A stretch of DNA of 64,000 nucleotides from sequence record NZ_CP104760.1; one strand, given 5' to 3'. Source of the DNA: a plasmid. Below are positions 20,200 through 42,118 of the stretch, piece by piece. The notes beneath the pieces were generated by a model. It saw only the letters and a program-made list of their open reading frames with translations, was not told the DNA's origin and did no database searches. The position numbers and the translations under genes were made by a program. Positions within the stretch are counted from its first letter, which is position 1, and each line of letters begins with the position of its first letter.

Positions 20200-20439
20200 G
20201 ACTTTCTTGCGCCAGCGATATTCGTGGCGCAGTCGGGCGCCAGGCTAATGCGGCCCTGGTCAACGGCCAGCAGCGATCCTTTCGCTATTCCAGCATCATG
20301 ATAATCAATGGCTTTTCTGACAAATTCTATACATTAAGGCGACAGATGCACTAAACGCCAAAGCTAAAATGCTGCGCTGCATAGCCTGCCACCCTTTGAT
20401 AATTTCAATTTCAGAGGATATAAAGTACGTAATTTCTTC

Positions 20440-21129
20440 TCAAAATAAATCGCTCGTTCCAAATATACGATTAAGGTTCGTTTTCCCAACCTTAGTGACA
20501 AAAACGGCGCGGCTGTTTTTTTTCTTTATAATCCATTCTGATTTAACGAATCGATCTGCAAGAATATTTCCCAGAAAGCCGCCAAGGTGCGGGACGCGTT
20601 CAGTCCAGTCCATACACTGGATTGCAACTTTTTCTGGGATTGACTCCGGGCCAGCTGGAAGCAAATTATGATAGCTAAACCAGTCAGCCCCGTTACTGGT
20701 CAAATGAATAGTCTTAGAATGACCTTCAGTCTGAATGTAATGTAATTCGAGCAACTTTTGATAAATTAAAACGCCAAGATGTCCAGCCAGATGATTAAAA
20801 CAATAACGAGCCTGACATATTTCATTTTCAGGTAACTTCCGGTGTATTCCTTTACTACTGGCAAGATACATAACCGACTCTACAACAGAGGCTACATCAG
20901 AGGAGCTGAGCGTAAAATACTTAAATTTACCTTGCTTAAAGGTTTTCACAAGGCCGCTGTCAACAAGTGCTTTAAGATGAGCCGTTGCGGCTGAAGGCAG
21001 AAGGCCAGTTCCGTATGCCAGCTCTTTTGCCGTGAAATATCGTCCCTCCATCATCAGAACTAACATTTCAAGTCTGCGCTGATTCCCTAAGGCTATAGCT
21101 AACTGATTTAAAACATTTTTATTAAACAT
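20440..21129 (-). CDS. two-domain ArsR/SmtB-like winged-helix regulator (C-terminal Cys/His-rich domain), divergent from the RiPP-like operon
   Basis: 229 aa; N-terminal ArsR-type HTH (RRLEMLVLMMEG..FTAKELAYGTGLLPSAATAHLKALVDSGLV); shares the C-terminal motifs CFNHLAG and CMDWTERVPHLGG with the paralog at 40704-41414. Confidence 0.7.
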   Translation of the reverse strand: MFNKNVLNQLAIALGNQRRLEMLVLMMEGRYFTAKELAYGTGLLPSAATAHLKALVDSGLVKTFKQGKFKYFTLSSSDVASVVESVMYLASSKGIHRKLPENEICQARYCFNHLAGHLGVLIYQKLLELHYIQTEGHSKTIHLTSNGADWFSYHNLLPAGPESIPEKVAIQCMDWTERVPHLGGFLGNILADRFVKSEWIIKKKNSRAVFVTKVGKTNLNRIFGTSDLF

Positions 21130-21191
21130 AGTTCATCCTTGACTGAATGGTTAAAACTTGAAACATATCCTGAAACGTTCTAATTGTATTT

Positions 21192-21212
21192 TTGCATTGT
21201 ATCTAAATGCAA
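21192..21212. promoter_or_regulatory. inverted repeat TTGCATT-N7-AATGCAA in the divergent promoter region; candidate operator
   Basis: seen directly about 40 nt upstream of the sORF ATG. Confidence 0.25.
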
Positions 21213-21248
21213 TACAAGTTTATTTCATTTAATTATAGGGGGTTCATT

Positions 21249-21302
21249 ATGAAATTTACAAAATTTAATGCGTCAAATGCAACTCTGGCTGCTGTAGGTT
21301 GA
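21249..21302 (+). CDS. 17-codon sORF (MKFTKFNASNATLAAVG) with a strong RBS; candidate RiPP precursor peptide
   Basis: AGGGGG 7 nt upstream of the ATG; sits directly upstream of the MccB-like gene in the position mccA occupies; a hairpin follows it as in mcc operons; but it ends in Gly, not the Asn required by canonical MccB. Confidence 0.45.
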   Translation: MKFTKFNASNATLAAVG

Positions 21303-21320
21303 TTTGGCCACTAAGAATTA

Positions 21321-21341
21321 AAGGGCCTGTAACAGGCCCTT
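21321..21341 (+). terminator. stable hairpin (AAGGGCCTG-taa-CAGGCCCTT) between the sORF and the MccB-like gene; partial terminator or attenuator candidate
   Basis: seen directly; analogous to the mccA-mccB intergenic terminator of E. coli microcin C operons; followed by TTCT, not a strong U-tract. Confidence 0.5.
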
Positions 21342-21372
21342 TCTAAGGGATTTAGTTAAAAGGGAGTTTATT

Positions 21373-22476
21373 ATGGATGTCATGAAGGTGTGTCTTAAAC
21401 CTACGGTTCTTTTATACAAAAACAACCCCAATAAAGTAGTGTTAAGGTTCTGTTCAGAAATAATAGAATTTGATGATGAGCGTGGCGATATACGGTTTTT
21501 CTTCGGTTTACTATGTGGAGCGTACACCTCGAAAGAAATCCTTGATGAGTATGCCAAAAAATATCCATATGATTCAGGCAGAGCCAGAGATTATCTGGAT
21601 ACGCTTAATGAACTGAAACTGATTGAACTACAACCTCAGGATTATAGCCCACTAAGTGACGCTCAGAAAGAAAGATATTCGCGAAACTTTGAATTCTTTA
21701 ATTCAGCTTTGCCAGTTGGAATGAACAAATATGGCATTCAGTGTTCCTTACTTGACAGTCGGGTAGTCGTATTAGGATGTGGAGGACTCGGTAGCCATAT
21801 CATTCTTGAACTCGCCGCGTTGGGAGTCGGAAACCTGACTATCGTTGACTTTGATCTGATTGAACTTAGTAACCTGAACAGGCAGATTCTATACAGAGAA
21901 GCAGATCTCGGACGAAAAAAAGTGTTTGCTGCAAGAAATAATGCCCTTACTTTCAACTCCAGTATTAATATCACCCCCGTTGAAAAGAAAATTGAATCAG
22001 TTTTAGATATAAAAGAAATAATTGTTGATCATGATCTTGTAATCTGCGTTGCAGATAAACCGCGAAACAGTATGGTTAAATGGCTTAATGAAGCCTGCTG
22101 CAAAGCAAAGATACCTTACATCAATGGCGGGCTTGATATTCGTAAGGCTGTTTTCTATTCGGTTATCCCTGGTGAAACCGGCTGCACAGAATGCTGGAAA
22201 TCATTTTTGCCCGAACAAAACAGGAAAGTAATCGATGAGGATAGCAGTACCCAAAATGATTATATGACCCCAGCCCCGGCTCTTTCAGCTCTCGTGTCTG
22301 TGACAACGGGCGCTATGATCTGTGAAGCAATTAAACTGTTAACTGATCTACAGCCACCCTCGCTGACAAACAATCTTAAAACCTTCTCTTTTGATGATTT
22401 GACTATCACTACAACTGAAAAGTGGAGGTTAAATCCAGAGTGTCATTGCTGCGAAATTATCGAAGGCCGAAAATGA
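21373..22476 (+). CDS. MccB-like ThiF/HesA/MoeB-family (E1-like) adenylyltransferase with an N-terminal peptide-binding domain
   Basis: 367 aa; RYSRNF motif then Rossmann VVLGCGGLGSHIILELAALGVGNLTIVDFDLIELSNLNRQ; later PYINGG...PGETGCTEC (CxxC) and a C-terminal CHCC, parallel to MccB (RYSRNF...ILGCGGIGNHV...QPYINAG...PGKTGCYEC...CSVC); ~105-aa N-terminal clamp/RRE-like domain. Confidence 0.8.
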   Translation: MDVMKVCLKPTVLLYKNNPNKVVLRFCSEIIEFDDERGDIRFFFGLLCGAYTSKEILDEYAKKYPYDSGRARDYLDTLNELKLIELQPQDYSPLSDAQKERYSRNFEFFNSALPVGMNKYGIQCSLLDSRVVVLGCGGLGSHIILELAALGVGNLTIVDFDLIELSNLNRQILYREADLGRKKVFAARNNALTFNSSINITPVEKKIESVLDIKEIIVDHDLVICVADKPRNSMVKWLNEACCKAKIPYINGGLDIRKAVFYSVIPGETGCTECWKSFLPEQNRKVIDEDSSTQNDYMTPAPALSALVSVTTGAMICEAIKLLTDLQPPSLTNNLKTFSFDDLTITTTEKWRLNPECHCCEIIEGRK

Positions 22477-23642
22477 ACAAACTTATTTTATCTTATGCCA
22501 ACACTTCTTTTGGCTTCTGGTTGATATCATTTCTTATACCACTCATTGTTCTTGACATTAGTGGTTCAGCTTTTCTTGTCTCTCTTTCCTATGCGCTGAA
22601 TGTTTTTCCTTATATAGTAATAACCCCTCTCGCAGGGGTTGTTTGTGATACATATAACAGGAAAAATATCATTATGGCAGGGGAGTTATTTTGCTGTATT
22701 ACATCATTGTTACTGTTTTTTATTATCGATTTTAACCCTTCTGCTTATCTTGTTATAGGGCTAGGTTTTATTGTCTCATCCTTGTCAGCGATGCATCACC
22801 CTGTTTTTCAGTCGTTGATACCTGACCTGTATGAGCAAAATGAAATCAAGAATATTAACGCAAGCGTTGGCGTTATCGACAGCACCGTCAGTATACTTGC
22901 TCCGGTTATTTTAGGGGCGTTATTCTATAAATTCTCTAAGCAATCCGCATTGCTCCTTGTTACCCTTTGTTATTTTTTATCTTTTATAACCATTTTAACT
23001 ATACCTTATCACGGTCATAAGTCACAGGCGATATTGTCTTTGCAACACATCTGGGGTTCTTTACGGAAAGGTTTTGAATATGTCTTACATCAGAAAGCGT
23101 TATTCAATTTATCCTGCCTTTTTTTCTTTATTAATATGGGTATCAGGGTTATATTCCCCAACCTGATTTGGATTTATAGCGCCCAGTTTCATTTGAGCTC
23201 AGAGCAAATTGCTATAATGTTTGTGATTATTGGATTTGGCTCTATTTTAGGTGCGCGCATCGGGGCAGCTCTAATTGGACGGTTTGCCGATGTTTCTATC
23301 ATTATCTATTGCTCAATGATCATTGGCTTATGCAGTATACTGTTACTGGCCGCAAATAGTGCTCTGATGCACGCCATTACCTGGGCACTATCATCTTTAG
23401 TTCAATCGATTATTGTTGTTACCTATTTTACCTACAGACAAAAAGTCACAGAGCCTTATATACTCGGGAGAGTAGTATCAGTTACAAGATTAATATCTTA
23501 TATGGCTATACCTCTGGCTTCGGTATCAAGTGGCTGGGCAATATCAGTTTATGACTCTGTAACTGTTATTTATATTTTCAGCGCGCTGGTAATTCTGGTG
23601 CCGCTTTTATTCTATTGGCTGGCTACTCGAAAAGCAGTCTGA
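22473..23642 (+). CDS. MFS-family efflux transporter (MccC/PaaC-like exporter), translationally coupled (ATGA overlap) to the E1-like gene
   Basis: ~389 aa hydrophobic protein with 12 predicted TM segments; start ATG 22473 overlaps the TGA of the upstream gene. Confidence 0.8.
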   Translation: MNKLILSYANTSFGFWLISFLIPLIVLDISGSAFLVSLSYALNVFPYIVITPLAGVVCDTYNRKNIIMAGELFCCITSLLLFFIIDFNPSAYLVIGLGFIVSSLSAMHHPVFQSLIPDLYEQNEIKNINASVGVIDSTVSILAPVILGALFYKFSKQSALLLVTLCYFLSFITILTIPYHGHKSQAILSLQHIWGSLRKGFEYVLHQKALFNLSCLFFFINMGIRVIFPNLIWIYSAQFHLSSEQIAIMFVIIGFGSILGARIGAALIGRFADVSIIIYCSMIIGLCSILLLAANSALMHAITWALSSLVQSIIVVTYFTYRQKVTEPYILGRVVSVTRLISYMAIPLASVSSGWAISVYDSVTVIYIFSALVILVPLLFYWLATRKAV

Positions 23643-23854
23643 AAGGTAAGAAGTCATTTCAATGCCTGCCTTTGGCAGGCCTGATGGTAAGAAATTAATC
23701 CTCTAAGATCTGGTGCTTTAAGCCTTGTAAATACTCCCTTTTGCTATGTTTTCATCGCCTCAGATTCCTGAGACTGAGCCGATGAAAAAGAAGAACAACC
23801 CTACGCCCTCACCATCCGTTCCCTGATAGCGATTAACCTCTCCGCAGTCGCTCA

Positions 23855-40703: not shown

Positions 40704-41414
40704 TCAGGGCTGACAGATTCCGAACAGGCGATGCATCGCCTTTGTGCCTTCTTTCGTTACCGTGACTTCACGATATCCGGGCACGCGAAGCAGCCACGCA
40801 TGCTGCAGAAAGCATGTCAGCAGCGCATGACCTGCGTCTCCTCCCAAATGAAAGCGCCTTTCACTCCAGTCAAGACATGAACAACAGGCTTTGCGCCTTG
40901 CTTCAGGATGCAGTACCGCCCCCAAATCATGAAACTGCGTTTTACCAACAGACGTAAGAGATGATCCGTCAGGCTCCAGCCACTTTTCCTGCAGCATAAA
41001 TGCGTAAATATTCACAGCAAGTTCGCCAGCAAGGTGGTCGTAGCAGGTGCGCGCGTAGCGTAAATGCTCAGGAGTGCGCGGCGGTGGCAAAGCGCGGCTG
41101 TGGGTGGATACGCCCATCAGGTTTTCCAGCAGTCCGGCAATGTGATGCCCGGCCAGGCTGTAATAGCGGTGACGTCCCTGAGAGAGGCAGATGATCAGCC
41201 CGCTGCTGAGCAGCCGCGCAAGATGGCCGCTGGTGGTCGAAGCGGCAACAGAGGCTGCCGCGCTGAGCTCGGTGGCGGTCCAGGCCCGTCCATCCATAAG
41301 CGCGCAGAGGATAGTGACCCGGGACGGATCAGACAGGGCGGCAGCCACGAGCGACATCGATTTTTCCAGACCGCTCTCGGGGAGCGAGTCATGTTCACTC
41401 TGCAACAGGCTCAT
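40704..41414 (-). CDS. two-domain ArsR/SmtB-like regulator (paralog of 20440-21129)
   Basis: 236 aa; ArsR HTH ([42 protein letters not shown]) plus C-terminal CYDHLAG and [13 protein letters not shown] motifs shared with the island copy. Confidence 0.7.
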
Positions 41415-41802
41415 TCAACACTGTCTCCCATTTTCTGGTGACTTCAGCAGCCCGAACATCATCATCCGTAAGAAGTATGAGCCGGTTGCTGTGATCGCTA
41501 TACTGTACTCGAATATTAATGCCGCTCCGGCCCAGAGCATCAGCGAGTTCGCCCAGCTCTCCGGGACGTTCCTGAGGCAGCTTGCGGATCAGCGGGCGGC
41601 ACAGTGCTTTAACGTCAAATCCCGCTTCCGTCAGCACCCGCCGGGCCTTTTCTCCATCCTCAACAAGGTAATGGGCGTGTCCACCGTCGGAGGTGGTAAA
41701 AACGCCGCCGCCTTCAAGTCCGATGCCGTTTTTCCCCAGCGTACCGCCCAGTAAGGCAAGCGCGCCTGGCCTGTTGCTCAGAACGATGTGGATATCATAC
41801 AT
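41395..41802 (-). CDS. ACT-domain-like small protein
   Basis: start set at [20 protein letters not shown]; ACT-like beta-alpha-beta-beta-alpha-beta pattern; family assignment tentative. Confidence 0.5.
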
Positions 41803-42118
41803 GCTGATGCGCTTCCTTATCTGAAGAGTAATCGCGGAACACGTGGGCGACCCGTATTCTGTAGCTGGCGAAAATAGATCCCCTGCCCTCTTTTTGCGCA
41901 GCCTGATGCATAACGTTTTGCTTCCAGCGCGCCACGGCATCTTCGTCTTCCCACCAGGAAAGAGACAATATTTTTCCTGCTGTACTCAGGCTTTGAAAGC
42001 GCTCAACTGAAATAAATCCTGGTGCATCAGCTAATAAAGGCTTCAGCTCCGCGGCAAGCTGCAGGTAGTGCTCCTGCGCGTCAGGAAGGGCATTCGCTTC
42101 AAATATTACGGCAATCAT
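41795..42118 (-). CDS. antibiotic-biosynthesis-monooxygenase (ABM) domain protein
   Basis: 107 aa; ABM/ferredoxin-like fold pattern (MIAVIFEA...FISVERFQS...[15 protein letters not shown]). Confidence 0.7.

What the first reader, a model, noticed from the sequence alone, without database searches (positions are those of the whole stretch)
21249..21341. Candidate precursor sORF ends in Gly, not Asn, and is followed by a mcc-style attenuator hairpin
The sORF MKFTKFNASNATLAAVG has an AGGGGG Shine-Dalgarno sequence at ideal spacing. It is followed 19 nt later by a 9-bp GC-rich stem (AAGGGCCTG-taa-CAGGCCCTT), then the RBS of the E1-like gene.

In E. coli mcc operons a ribosome-dependent partial terminator between mccA and mccB over-produces the precursor message, and the same layout is seen here. 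However, all known MccB substrates end in Asn, and pantocin A derives from an internal EEN motif. Neither is present here (there is an internal FNASNAT segment). This argues for altered substrate chemistry, processing before modification, or a different true substrate.

An in-frame upstream ATG at 21207 would give a 31-aa peptide, but it has no RBS.
Basis: partly seen in the sequence, partly recalled or inferred. Interest (0 to 1): 0.7.

Follow-up and report, generated by a model that had tools for sequence, protein, structure and literature searches.

The report
Conserved Gly-ended precursor peptide for MccB-like enzyme
The 17-codon open reading frame is a real, strongly conserved precursor-peptide gene, followed by a conserved RNA hairpin, at the head of a three-gene peptide-modification operon found in at least five bacterial phyla, and its chemistry cannot be that of microcin C and appears never to have been characterised.

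Summary
ATG 21249 to TGA 21302 encodes MKFTKFNASNATLAAVG behind an AGGGGG Shine-Dalgarno. A 10-bp G+C-rich hairpin (21320-21342) and the E1-like gene (21373) follow.

The sORF is not a chance ORF:
- About 50 loci encoding relatives of the E1-like protein (Pantoea, Salmonella plasmids, Histophilus, Pseudomonas, Nostoc, Bacteroidota, Streptomyces, Bacillus, Streptococcus mitis) carry a 15-19 aa sORF at the same place.
- Counting from the C-terminus, the peptides share Ser/Thr(-9) in 46 of 47, Ala(-7) in 40 of 47 and Gly(-1) in 35 of 47.
- dN/dS among close relatives is 0.03-0.3.
- A Shine-Dalgarno-like motif is present in 48 of 53 loci.
- A strong stem-loop of unrelated sequence follows the stop codon in all 51 non-redundant loci (median z -5).

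The enzyme models as full-length MccB (peptide clamp plus adenylation domain). An MFS exporter follows it in 29 of 32 loci tested.

Asn is not conserved, and many peptides, including this one, have no Asp or Glu. I therefore infer that the enzyme adenylates the C-terminal carboxylate and a non-Asn nucleophile captures it, most likely Ser(-9), giving a macrolactone. That last step is speculative.

No paper, Pfam model or NCBIfam model describes this precursor family. I rate it a new variant of ThiF-like RiPP systems.

The parts
20290..23830 (.). Low-G+C island (about 36-42% G+C) inside 60-67% G+C DNA, next to malM/lamB/malK. It carries the whole cluster. Boundaries are approximate.
   Evidence: Composition profile; sequence of the edges. 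The host is a Pantoea piersonii plasmid of about 262 kb, by exact protein look-up.
20440..21129 (-). Divergently transcribed ArsR/SmtB-type winged-helix regulator, 229 aa, with an uncharacterised C-terminal half. It is conserved next to the cluster in enterobacterial relatives.
   Evidence: Pfam HTH_5 and NCBIfam HTH_metalloreg hits. The same 224-229 aa gene sits in L081, L082 and L085-87. tblastn identity is 79% to L081 and 44% to Salmonella.
21184..21217 (.). Nested palindrome TTGTATT..TTGCATT-GTATCTA-AATGCAATACAA between the regulator gene and the sORF. It is a candidate operator (inferred).
   Evidence: Inverted repeats I5 and I6. A TTGCATT-N7-AATGCAA palindrome is also present in L082, and GTTGCAT..ATGCAAC in H. 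somni L089.
21237..21242 (+). Shine-Dalgarno sequence AGGGGG of the sORF, 6 nt before the ATG.
   Evidence: Sequence. A Shine-Dalgarno-like 4-mer lies at -18..-4 in 48 of 53 family loci, against 0.19 at random positions.
21249..21302 (+). Precursor-peptide gene, 17 codons plus stop: MKFTKFNASNATLAAVG. Residues 1 to about 8 are probably a leader or clamp-binding strand. The last 9 residues, S-N-A-T-L-A-A-V-G, are the conserved core.
   Evidence: Sequence. Orthologous sORFs in L081, L082, L084, L085 and L089 and in about 45 more distant loci. dN/dS 0.03-0.3. Motif control. Position frequencies.
21320..21342 (+). Stem-loop AAAGGGCCUG-UAA-CAGGCCCUUU (-15.5 kcal/mol), 17 nt after the sORF stop and 30 nt before the E1-like start codon. 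It is probably a partial terminator or a 3'-end stabiliser that raises the ratio of precursor mRNA to enzyme mRNA.
   Evidence: A structurally equivalent hairpin of unrelated sequence occurs in 51 of 51 non-redundant loci (median z -5.0 against shuffles). L081 and L082 have the same stem followed by TTTTT.
21373..22476 (+). MccB-like E1/ThiF-family adenylyltransferase, 367 aa. It has an N-terminal peptide clamp (RRE-like, about residues 1-90), an adenylation domain and a CxxC...CxxC motif.
   Evidence: Pfam ThiF 5.9e-50. All NCBIfam hits fall below their cut-offs. The best solved relative is MccB at 2e-36; PaaA scores 9e-19. AF2 model pLDDT 92.6. Foldseek aligns 361 columns to MccB with TM 0.80. 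Invariant residues are listed.
22473..23642 (+). MFS (MFS_1/MFS_3, EntS/MccC-type) exporter, 389 aa from ATG 22473. That ATG overlaps the E1-like stop as ATGA, which suggests translational coupling.
   Evidence: The orthologous MFS lies directly downstream of the enzyme in 29 of 32 loci tested across phyla.

Best explanation
The sORF is the translated precursor peptide of an uncharacterised, widely distributed clade of MccB-like (peptide clamp plus E1/ThiF adenylyltransferase) RiPP operons. The conserved core is precursor - stem-loop - enzyme - MFS exporter.

**Proposed mechanism**
1. The operon is transcribed from a promoter controlled by the divergent ArsR-type regulator (inferred).
2. The stem-loop after the sORF stops part of the transcripts or stabilises the 3' end of a short precursor mRNA. 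The 17-mer is therefore made in excess over the enzyme (layout shown, function inferred).
3. The N-terminal half of the peptide binds the enzyme's peptide clamp, and the enzyme uses ATP to adenylate the C-terminal alpha-carboxylate of Gly17. This step is inferred. The window peptide has no Asp or Glu, so this is its only carboxylate, and E. coli MccB is known to O-AMPylate a Gly-terminated MccA.
4. With no C-terminal Asn, no succinimide or phosphoramidate can form. A different nucleophile captures the glycyl-AMP. The best candidate is the hydroxyl of the nearly invariant Ser/Thr nine residues from the C-terminus (Ser9 here), which would give a nine-residue C-terminal macrolactone, a lariat peptide (speculative).
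5. The product leaves the cell through the MFS pump (inferred).

The biological role, antibiotic or signal, is unknown.
For: **The sORF is real and belongs with the enzyme**
- It is conserved at the same place in close relatives and distant relatives.
- Between close relatives, differences fall mostly at third codon positions (5 of 6, 7 of 8 and 9 of 12 for the three closest), and dN/dS is 0.03-0.3 across pairs.
- A Shine-Dalgarno-like motif is present in 48 of 53 loci.
- The motif control gives 44 of 54 against 1 of 54 and 1 of 49.
- Nostoc carries two identical precursor copies.

**Enzyme**
- It has the full-length MccB fold including the peptide clamp.
- The ATP-binding and catalytic motifs RxxRN, GxGxxG, NRQ, K183 and D228 are invariant.

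**C-terminal activation**
- 16 of 47 peptides, including the window's, lack Asp and Glu.
- 25 of 47 lack Asn.
- 35 of 47 end in Gly.
- MccA-N7G is O-AMPylated by E. coli MccB and the adenylate is captured by added nucleophiles (PMC11118369, PMC13255007).
- Other RRE-ThiF enzymes (GrcB, EnfB, IndF) adenylate a carboxylate that an internal nucleophile then captures (PMC12250964, PMC12150305).

**Ser(-9) as nucleophile**
- It is the most conserved residue after Met1 (Ser 43, Thr 3 of 47).
- Its distance to the C-terminus stays fixed whatever the last residue is (G, T, S, A, F, Y, N).

**Hairpin and exporter**
- The hairpin is present in 51 of 51 loci with non-homologous stems, parallel to the mccA-mccB terminator (PMC4231749).
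- The exporter follows in 29 of 32 loci.
Against: - No experiment exists. Translation, adenylation, the product and termination are all inferred.
- The fixed Ser-to-C-terminus distance could reflect only the geometry between the clamp-binding motif and the active site. In Gram-positive and actinobacterial members Ser(-9) directly follows an (I/V/T)RKA motif. That motif resembles the (V/I)RKA leader motif of EnfA, which sits at the same residues 7-10.
- One peptide (L007) has Leu at -9.
- 12 of 47 peptides do not end in Gly.
- Only 12 of 51 hairpins have a T-rich tail. The window's tail is weak, and no ribosome-sensitive alternative structure was found.
- Accessory genes differ between subclades (ABM, AlkA_N-like, methyltransferase, FAD-binding protein, M3 peptidase). 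Final products may therefore differ.
Confidence: 0.6

Rival explanations
1. C-terminal activation is the same, but the capture is different. Options are a backbone amide nitrogen near the C-terminus (a cyclic imide as proposed for EnfB), a Lys side chain, or the N-terminal amine. In this reading Ser(-9) is part of the leader or recognition motif rather than the nucleophile.
For: EnfB and IndF close small rings within the last 3-4 residues. EnfA has a (V/I)RKA motif at residues 7-10, as do many peptides here, for example MSVAMKTRKASIAG, so RKA-S may be a binding motif. Lys is present in 39 of 47 peptides.
Against: Ser(-9) (46 of 47) is far better conserved than R(-12), K(-11) or A(-10) (14, 19 and 21 of 47). 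Lys is not in a fixed register: -13 in the window, -11 in most others. Eight peptides have no Lys. The N-terminus is at a variable distance and is probably formylated and held by the clamp, as in MccA.
Confidence: 0.2
2. Capture is intermolecular. The glycyl-AMP is attacked by a cellular amine or thiol, or by an enzyme cysteine or persulfide. The result is a C-terminally amidated or conjugated peptide, or a peptide thiocarboxylate, in the manner of a miniature ThiS/MoaD/ubiquitin-like carrier.
For: E1-type enzymes classically act on Gly-terminated substrates. EnfB amidates its peptide with many amines in vitro. MccB-generated Gly-AMP is captured by thiols. The Cys equivalent to ThiF Cys184 (by my own recall of the ThiF literature, not checked here) is invariant (C242).
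Against: The conserved core has only one enzyme and a dedicated exporter, with no sulfurtransferase or rhodanese domain and no partner enzyme. C242 is also present in MccB, which forms no thioester. A 17-mer has no beta-grasp fold. This reading gives no role to the strictly conserved internal Ser at a fixed distance.
Confidence: 0.13
3. It is a genuine microcin C-type peptidyl-nucleotide, made from one of the internal Asn residues (FNASNAT) or after proteolytic trimming that exposes a C-terminal Asn.
For: The enzyme's closest solved relative is MccB. The operon layout is mccABC-like. The window peptide has Asn7 and Asn10. Three of 47 family peptides end in Asn.
Against: 25 of 47 family peptides contain no Asn at all, for example Pseudomonas MTFEKASSAGDSQIG. 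The Asn positions of the enterobacterial peptides are not conserved even in Salmonella or H. somni. The core cluster has no peptidase. No short Asn-terminated ORF is conserved in the intergenic region: the TTG-started MATKN at 21304 is absent from L081.
Confidence: 0.04
4. The sORF is not a substrate. It is a leader peptide or regulatory uORF, or a chance ORF, and the hairpin is simply an attenuator controlling the enzyme and pump, which act on some other molecule.
For: Short ORF plus hairpin resembles classical leader-peptide attenuators. No curated model recognises the peptide.
Against: The amino-acid sequence itself is under purifying selection and conserved across phyla with a fixed C-terminal register, which a regulatory uORF does not need. 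The enzyme carries a peptide-clamp/RRE domain. No alternative antiterminator pairing exists. Some genomes carry duplicated precursor copies.
Confidence: 0.03

Closest known systems
Microcin C operon core mccA-mccB-mccC (E. coli; homologues in H. pylori, L. johnsonii and others)
   Same: A tiny precursor ORF comes first, followed by a stem-loop or terminator, then an MccB-type enzyme with N-terminal peptide clamp and E1 adenylation domain, then an MFS exporter. MccB is the best sequence match (2e-36) and best structural match (TM 0.80). No leader peptidase is present.
   Different: The precursor is 15-19 aa rather than 7. It ends in Gly rather than the universally conserved Asn, so the succinimide and N-P phosphoramidate route is impossible. 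There are no mccD, mccE or mccF genes. Family members score 211-828 bits to the window enzyme against 130 bits for MccB. No ribosome-sensitive antiterminator is evident.
Enterofaecin EnfA/EnfB (WWIII-type ThiF-like RiPP; PMC11256085)
   Same: It has a short (21 aa) leader-plus-core precursor with no peptidase. Its (V/I)RKA motif at residues 7-10 resembles the (T/V/I)RKA of many members here. An RRE-ThiF enzyme adenylates the C-terminal carboxylate using one ATP, and capture follows.
   Different: Its core is WWIVI, with Trp essential, whereas this family has S-x-A-G-x-x-x-x-G and no Trp. EnfB is reported as only 22% identical to MccB. The enterofaecin cluster has four transporters and quorum-sensing-type regulators. 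The proposed product there is a small cyclic imide.
IndF (indolylamide) and GrcB (thiolactone) ThiF-like macrocyclases of Streptococcus pneumoniae (PMC12150305, PMC12250964)
   Same: An RRE-ThiF enzyme adenylates a carboxylate, which is then captured intramolecularly by a side-chain nucleophile with loss of water.
   Different: The nucleophiles are Trp indole N or Cys thiol, and neither residue is present here. Those precursors are longer, and their clusters have an M16 peptidase or radical-SAM partners. An O-nucleophile (Ser) lactone has not been reported for a ThiF-like enzyme in the reviews read.
Pantocin A paaPABC (Pantoea agglomerans)
   Same: Same genus. It also has a small precursor, an E1-like enzyme with a peptide-binding domain, and an MFS exporter.
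   Different: This cluster has no EEN motif and no PaaB oxygenase. PaaA is a much weaker match (9e-19; TM 0.69) than MccB.
ThiS/MoaD-ThiF/MoeB and ubiquitin-E1 activation
   Same: An E1-fold enzyme acts on a substrate whose C-terminus is Gly, and the first step is an acyl-adenylate.
   Different: Those substrates are beta-grasp proteins of about 66-90 aa ending in Gly-Gly. Here the substrate is a 17-mer ending in Val-Gly, the enzyme carries a peptide clamp, and the operon has an exporter and no sulfur-transfer partner.

Membership tests
Microcin C-type (MccA/MccB) peptidyl-nucleotide RiPP | MccB-type enzyme: E1 adenylation domain plus N-terminal peptide clamp | tested here: met
   phmmer against PDB gives MccB at 2e-36. 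The AF2 model (pLDDT 92.6) aligns over 361 columns to MccB with TM 0.80, N-terminal domain included.
Microcin C-type (MccA/MccB) peptidyl-nucleotide RiPP | Precursor ends in Asn, which is required for the succinimide and the N-P bond | tested here: not met
   The window peptide ends in Gly. 35 of 47 family peptides end in Gly, 3 in Asn, and 25 contain no Asn. The literature states that C-terminal Asn is universal in MccA.
Microcin C-type (MccA/MccB) peptidyl-nucleotide RiPP | Precursor is typically 7 aa (major clade) or 17-56 aa (minor clade) | tested here: inconclusive
   17 aa here, 15-19 in most of the family and 21 in one member. This lies outside the heptapeptide clade and at the lower edge of the long-precursor clade.
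Microcin C-type (MccA/MccB) peptidyl-nucleotide RiPP | Terminator hairpin between the precursor and enzyme genes; MFS (MccC-like) exporter | tested here: met
   The hairpin is conserved in 51 of 51 loci and the MFS in 29 of 32. Termination activity itself was not tested.
Microcin C-type (MccA/MccB) peptidyl-nucleotide RiPP | Product is a peptidyl-AMP or peptidyl-CMP phosphoramidate that inhibits AspRS | not testable with these tools
   This needs mass spectrometry of the product and bioassay.
Pantocin A (PaaP/PaaA/PaaB/PaaC) | Precursor with an internal Glu-Glu-Asn motif, plus a PaaB oxygenase | tested here: not met
   The window peptide has no Glu at all. The island has only regulator, sORF, E1-like and MFS genes.
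Enterofaecin / WWIII-type (EnfA/EnfB) | C-terminal WW(I/V)xI core with essential Trp residues | tested here: not met
   None of the 47 peptides contains Trp in the core. The requirement is described.
Enterofaecin / WWIII-type (EnfA/EnfB) | Leader (V/I)RKA motif at residues 7-10 of a peptide of about 20 aa | tested here: inconclusive
   The motif is present as (T/V/I)RK(A/T) in actinobacterial and Firmicute members. In the window peptide it is replaced by TKFNA.
IndF (NWYFI) / GrcB ThiF-like macrocyclases | Trp or Cys nucleophile in the core; M16 peptidase or radical-SAM partners | tested here: not met
   The window peptide has no Trp or Cys, and no such genes are in the island.
ThiS/MoaD-type sulfur carrier with ThiF/MoeB | Beta-grasp carrier protein ending in Gly-Gly; enzyme reaches ThiF/MoeB equivalog scores | tested here: not met
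   The substrate is a 17-mer ending in Val-Gly. NCBIfam MoeB and ThiF scores are 93-123 bits against cut-offs of 159-449. MoeB and ThiF structures cover only the C-terminal domain.
Generic RRE/peptide-clamp-ThiF-like RiPP cluster | ThiF-like enzyme fused to a peptide-binding domain, an adjacent conserved short precursor, and a transporter | tested here: met

The most novel reading that the evidence does not exclude
This is a previously unrecognised RiPP class in which an MccB-like E1 enzyme natively activates a Gly-terminated 15-19-mer and closes a nine-residue Ser-O-to-C-terminus macrolactone. That reaction type is not yet known for ThiF-like enzymes. The class is encoded by a mobile three-gene operon spread over at least five phyla, including Salmonella plasmids, Histophilus somni, Streptococcus mitis, Pseudomonas and Streptomyces.
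Probability: 0.3. Interest if true: 0.8.

Novelty: new variant of a known kind. Interest (0 to 1): 0.62.

Why it matters
- **Definition of MccB-like enzymes.** MccB-like enzymes are defined in the literature by Asn-terminated substrates. Earlier genome mining looked for Asn-ending ORFs and left many MccB homologues without a predicted peptide.
- **What this locus adds.** It shows a large, cross-phylum clade whose natural substrates end in Gly and share a different conserved core. That predicts new chemistry for the E1/ThiF fold and a new family of exported peptides, on plasmids and islands of plant-associated, animal-pathogenic and commensal bacteria.
- **Practical use.** These would be natural Gly-C-terminus-activating peptide ligases with cognate tags. 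That is the activity recently engineered from MccB for protein thioesterification (PMC11118369).
- **Annotation gap.** The precursor gene is missing from the RefSeq-derived gene table of the one record checked here, Salmonella plasmid NZ_CP045058.1 (that table is incomplete), and no Pfam or NCBIfam model matches the peptide.

Tried and rejected
1. **Alternative tiny ORF ending in Asn.** TTG 21304 MATKN, whose stop overlaps the hairpin, is not conserved in L081 or L082. Rejected.
2. **31-aa form from ATG 21207.** It has no Shine-Dalgarno, and the upstream ATG is absent in L081. Rejected.
3. **N-x-S/T sequons (NAS, NAT) as glycosylation sites.** They are not conserved in Salmonella, H. somni or more distant members. 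Rejected.
4. **Hairpin as a dispersed repeat.** It occurs once in the window. Rejected.
5. **Known RNA family.** Rfam gives nothing relevant.
6. **mcc-style antiterminator pairing with upstream RNA.** Forcing the 3' arm single-stranded leaves the 5' arm essentially unpaired. No support.
7. **ABM monooxygenase remnant next to the window's regulator.** None was found. The only ABM homologue lies 20 kb away.
8. **Pfam and NCBIfam models for the peptide.** None match.
9. **Full-text search for six peptide strings.** No relevant paper.
10. **Supplementary tables of PMC11256085, to compare with its 'VEGR type'.** They are not held.
11. **Plasmid collection.** It returned only the Salmonella relatives at 66% identity. 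The Pantoea plasmid is not in it.
12. **Single-linkage clustering of neighbouring ORFs.** It was too noisy because of antisense ORFs. A direct Pfam scan of the downstream genes replaced it.
13. **Identity of the 'H. somni MccB' used as a tool enzyme in PMC13255007.** Whether it is the family member P0036 could not be settled from the text.
Full report
**1. What is in the window**

One search shows the features at the stated coordinates.
- AGGGGG lies at 21237-21242, with a 6-nt spacer.
- ATG 21249 opens a 17-codon ORF, MKFTKFNASNATLAAVG, with stop TGA at 21300-21302.
- 17 nt later comes a perfect 10-bp stem, AAAGGGCCTG-TAA-CAGGCCCTTT (21320-21342). It folds at -15.5 kcal/mol alone.
- An AAGGGAG ribosome-binding site follows, then the ATG of a 367-aa gene at 21373.
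- That gene's stop overlaps, as ATGA, the start of a 389-aa gene (22473-23642).
- A 229-aa gene is transcribed divergently (20440-21129).

Pfam and NCBIfam call the three proteins a ThiF-family adenylyltransferase (below every curated equivalog cut-off), an MFS_1/MFS_3 transporter, and an ArsR/SmtB-type winged-helix regulator.

The four genes sit in an island of about 3.5 kb at 36-42% G+C, inside DNA of 60-67% G+C, beside malM-lamB-malK/malEFG. Exact-sequence look-ups place the window on a plasmid of about 262 kb in Pantoea piersonii, where the enzyme is annotated only as 'ThiF family adenylyltransferase'.

**2. The enzyme**

- Against solved structures the best sequence match is E. coli MccB (2e-36, residues 88-360). 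PaaA is far weaker (9e-19).
- An AlphaFold2 model built on 35 homologues has mean pLDDT 92.6.
- It superposes on full-length MccB over about 361 columns (TM 0.80), including the N-terminal 'peptide clamp'. MoeB and ThiF cover only the C-terminal domain.
- The RxxRN, GxGxxG, NRQ, Lys183 and Asp228 motifs and the CxxC...CxxC motif are invariant across 35 homologues.

It is therefore an MccB-type peptide-binding E1-like adenylyltransferase.

**3. The sORF is a conserved gene**

A protein search found a large family: 1796 hits, with 211-828 bits for the top 120 against 130 bits for MccB. I fetched 80 loci from species-representative genomes and ten more loci through exact-protein and plasmid look-ups.

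Close relatives carry the sORF at the same position:

| Locus | Enzyme identity to window | Peptide |
|---|---|---|
| L081 | 83% | MKFTKFNASNATLSAVG |
| L082 | 73% | MKFTKFNASNATLASVG |
| L084 | 62% | MKFTKSDATNATLAAVG |
| Salmonella plasmids | 56% | MKFTKHATSNAKLALVG |
| Histophilus somni | 48% | MKFKKYQASDAKLASVG |

- Nucleotide differences fall mostly on third codon positions: 5 of 6, 7 of 8 and 9 of 12 for the three closest relatives, and 8 of 16 for Salmonella. dN/dS is 0.03-0.3 across pairs.
- The upstream in-frame ATG (21207) and an alternative TTG-started MATKN ORF are not conserved.

Distant loci carry recognisably related peptides:

| Source | Peptide |
|---|---|
| Pseudomonas | MTFEKASSAGDSQIG |
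| Nostoc | MKVRIHKATFAGRSAVG (two copies) |
| Streptomyces | MSVAMKTRKASIAGQANEG |
| Bacillus | MVRKTVIKSSVAGLGLEG |
| Streptococcus mitis | MLKQKRVHSASIAGIAVEG |
| Bacteroidota | MNIIVASMAGEIGVN |

- A simple motif score reaches 5 or more in 44 of 54 upstream regions. It does so in 1 of 54 reverse complements and 1 of 49 control stretches.
- A Shine-Dalgarno-like motif precedes the start in 48 of 53 loci, against 0.19 at random positions. Three of the five exceptions are the Bacteroidota loci.

**4. The conserved pattern**

Aligned from the C-terminus, the 47 unique peptides show:

| Position | Residue | Count of 47 |
|---|---|---|
| -9 | Ser 43, Thr 3 | 46 |
| -7 | Ala | 40 |
| -6 | Gly | 29 |
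| -1 | Gly | 35 |

- Subclades end in T, S, A, F, Y, L or N.
- The Ser-to-C-terminus distance stays at nine residues whatever the last residue is.
- 25 peptides contain no Asn.
- 16 peptides, including the window's, contain no Asp or Glu. For these the alpha-carboxylate is the only group an E1-type enzyme could adenylate.

**5. The hairpin and the rest of the operon**

- In all 51 non-redundant loci, the strongest 40-nt hairpin between the sORF stop and the enzyme gene is much more stable than in dinucleotide shuffles. The median z is -5.0 and every z is below -1.5.
- The stems are 9-17 bp, unrelated in sequence, and usually start 5-20 nt after the stop.
- L081 and L082 keep the window's stem with loop changes and a TTTTT tail.
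- Only 12 of 51 have a T-rich tail.
- In the window, no upstream sequence competes with the stem.

The layout matches the mccA-terminator-mccB arrangement, which in E. coli gives an abundant, stable mccA transcript (PMC4231749). Termination and its ribosome dependence are not shown here.

Directly downstream of the enzyme gene, 29 of 32 tested loci encode an orthologous MFS transporter.

Accessory genes vary:
- an ABM-domain protein in L081, L082, L084 and Salmonella;
- an AlkA_N-like protein in Salmonella and L084;
- a methyltransferase in the Streptomyces '...AVAT' subclade;
- FAD-binding proteins;
- an M3 peptidase.

The window has the minimal set and no ABM remnant.

**6. Mechanism**

- **Shown:** a conserved precursor, stem-loop, MccB-fold enzyme and exporter module.
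- **Inferred:** the peptide's N-terminal half binds the clamp, and the enzyme adenylates the C-terminal carboxylate.

This inference has direct precedent. E. coli MccB O-AMPylates MccA-N7G, and the glycyl-adenylate is then captured by added nucleophiles (PMC11118369, PMC13255007). GrcB, EnfB and IndF all adenylate a carboxylate and close a ring with an internal nucleophile (PMC12250964, PMC12150305).

With no C-terminal Asn, the succinimide and phosphoramidate route is closed.

The most economical capture is by Ser/Thr(-9), the best-conserved residue at a fixed distance, giving a nine-residue macrolactone. This is speculative. In many members Ser(-9) follows an (I/V/T)RKA motif that resembles the EnfA leader motif at the same residues 7-10. 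The fixed register could therefore be a binding constraint. Imide formation, Lys capture or intermolecular capture remain possible.

**7. Comparison with what is known**

The reviews and primary papers read list five ThiF-like RiPP chemistries: phosphoramidate, pantocin bicycle, thiolactone, cyclic imide and indolylamide. They also name the bioinformatic clades WWIII, NWYFI, VEGR, NICxxxK, CxxxC and GxxQY. None matches this S-x-A-G...G family.
- Earlier MccB mining searched for Asn-containing ORFs and left branches without a predicted peptide.
- Six peptide strings occur in no relevant paper.
- No Pfam, NCBIfam or Rfam model matches.
- The sORF is not in the RefSeq-derived gene table of the Salmonella plasmid NZ_CP045058.1, which is incomplete.

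The library lacks most subscription-journal papers, so prior description elsewhere cannot be excluded.

**8. Verdict**

This is a precursor gene with an mcc-like layout whose Gly terminus signals chemistry different from microcin C. I rate it a new variant of a known kind, the peptide-clamp/RRE-ThiF-like RiPP operon. It is of real interest to RiPP and E1 enzymologists, but the product and its function are unknown.

Noticed in passing
window 40704-41414 (-) and 41795-42118 (-): A second ArsR-type 236-aa regulator (42% identical to the Salmonella cluster regulator, 33% to that of L081) and an ABM-domain protein (60% identical to the Salmonella cluster's ABM) lie 20 kb from the island, in DNA of native G+C. 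The regulator-plus-ABM pair seems to be a module that exists independently of the peptide cluster.
   Followed up: partly
window 21184-21217: Nested palindrome TTGTATT..TTGCATT-GTATCTA-AATGCAATACAA lies between the divergent regulator gene and the sORF. Similar TTGCAT..ATGCAA palindromes occur in L082 and in H. somni L089. It is a candidate operator.
   Followed up: partly
window 22473-22476: The E1-like stop codon and the MFS start codon overlap as ATGA, which suggests translational coupling of enzyme and exporter.
   Followed up: no
L085/L088 (Salmonella plasmid NZ_CP045058.1), L085 7333-8226; L084 7450-8301: A 283-297 aa protein with an AlkA_N-like (DNA glycosylase N-terminal) domain sits just after the MFS gene in Salmonella plasmids and in L084. 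In Salmonella an ABM gene follows it. It could be an immunity or tailoring function. It is absent from the window.
   Followed up: partly
L088 4101-4347 (NZ_CP045058.1): The conserved sORF MKFTKHATSNAKLALVG is not in the gene table held for this Salmonella plasmid record (a RefSeq-derived table that PLSDB distributes and that is incomplete). The Salmonella copies lie on conjugative MOBF plasmids of about 270-290 kb, next to parDE and kfrA.
   Followed up: yes
L008 4601-4654 and 4757-4810; L063 4617-4667 and 4690-4749: Nostoc carries two identical precursor copies. Pediococcus carries two copies of a related peptide, MTLTKTTASAVEPSGR, ending in Gly-Arg. This may correspond to the published but uncharacterised 'VEGR type'.
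   Followed up: no
L054-L056, L059, L061, L072, L075, L079: A sister clade in Solirubrobacterales has a different conserved precursor, such as MKISKAEHAIPSISIHKIG or MKVTKTEKPIVPASSIQKGA. It is also followed by very strong hairpins (for example L055, z -10).
   Followed up: no
L038, L043, L045, L047, L049: A Streptomyces subclade with the identical peptide MSIVLKTRKTSIAGRAVAT (ending in Thr, not Gly) has a SAM-dependent methyltransferase directly after the enzyme gene. Tailoring therefore differs between subclades.
   Followed up: partly
window 21337-21349: A second small stem, CCCTTTCTAAGGG, shares the CCCTTT of the main hairpin's 3' arm. The two structures are mutually exclusive. Its significance is unknown.
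   Followed up: no
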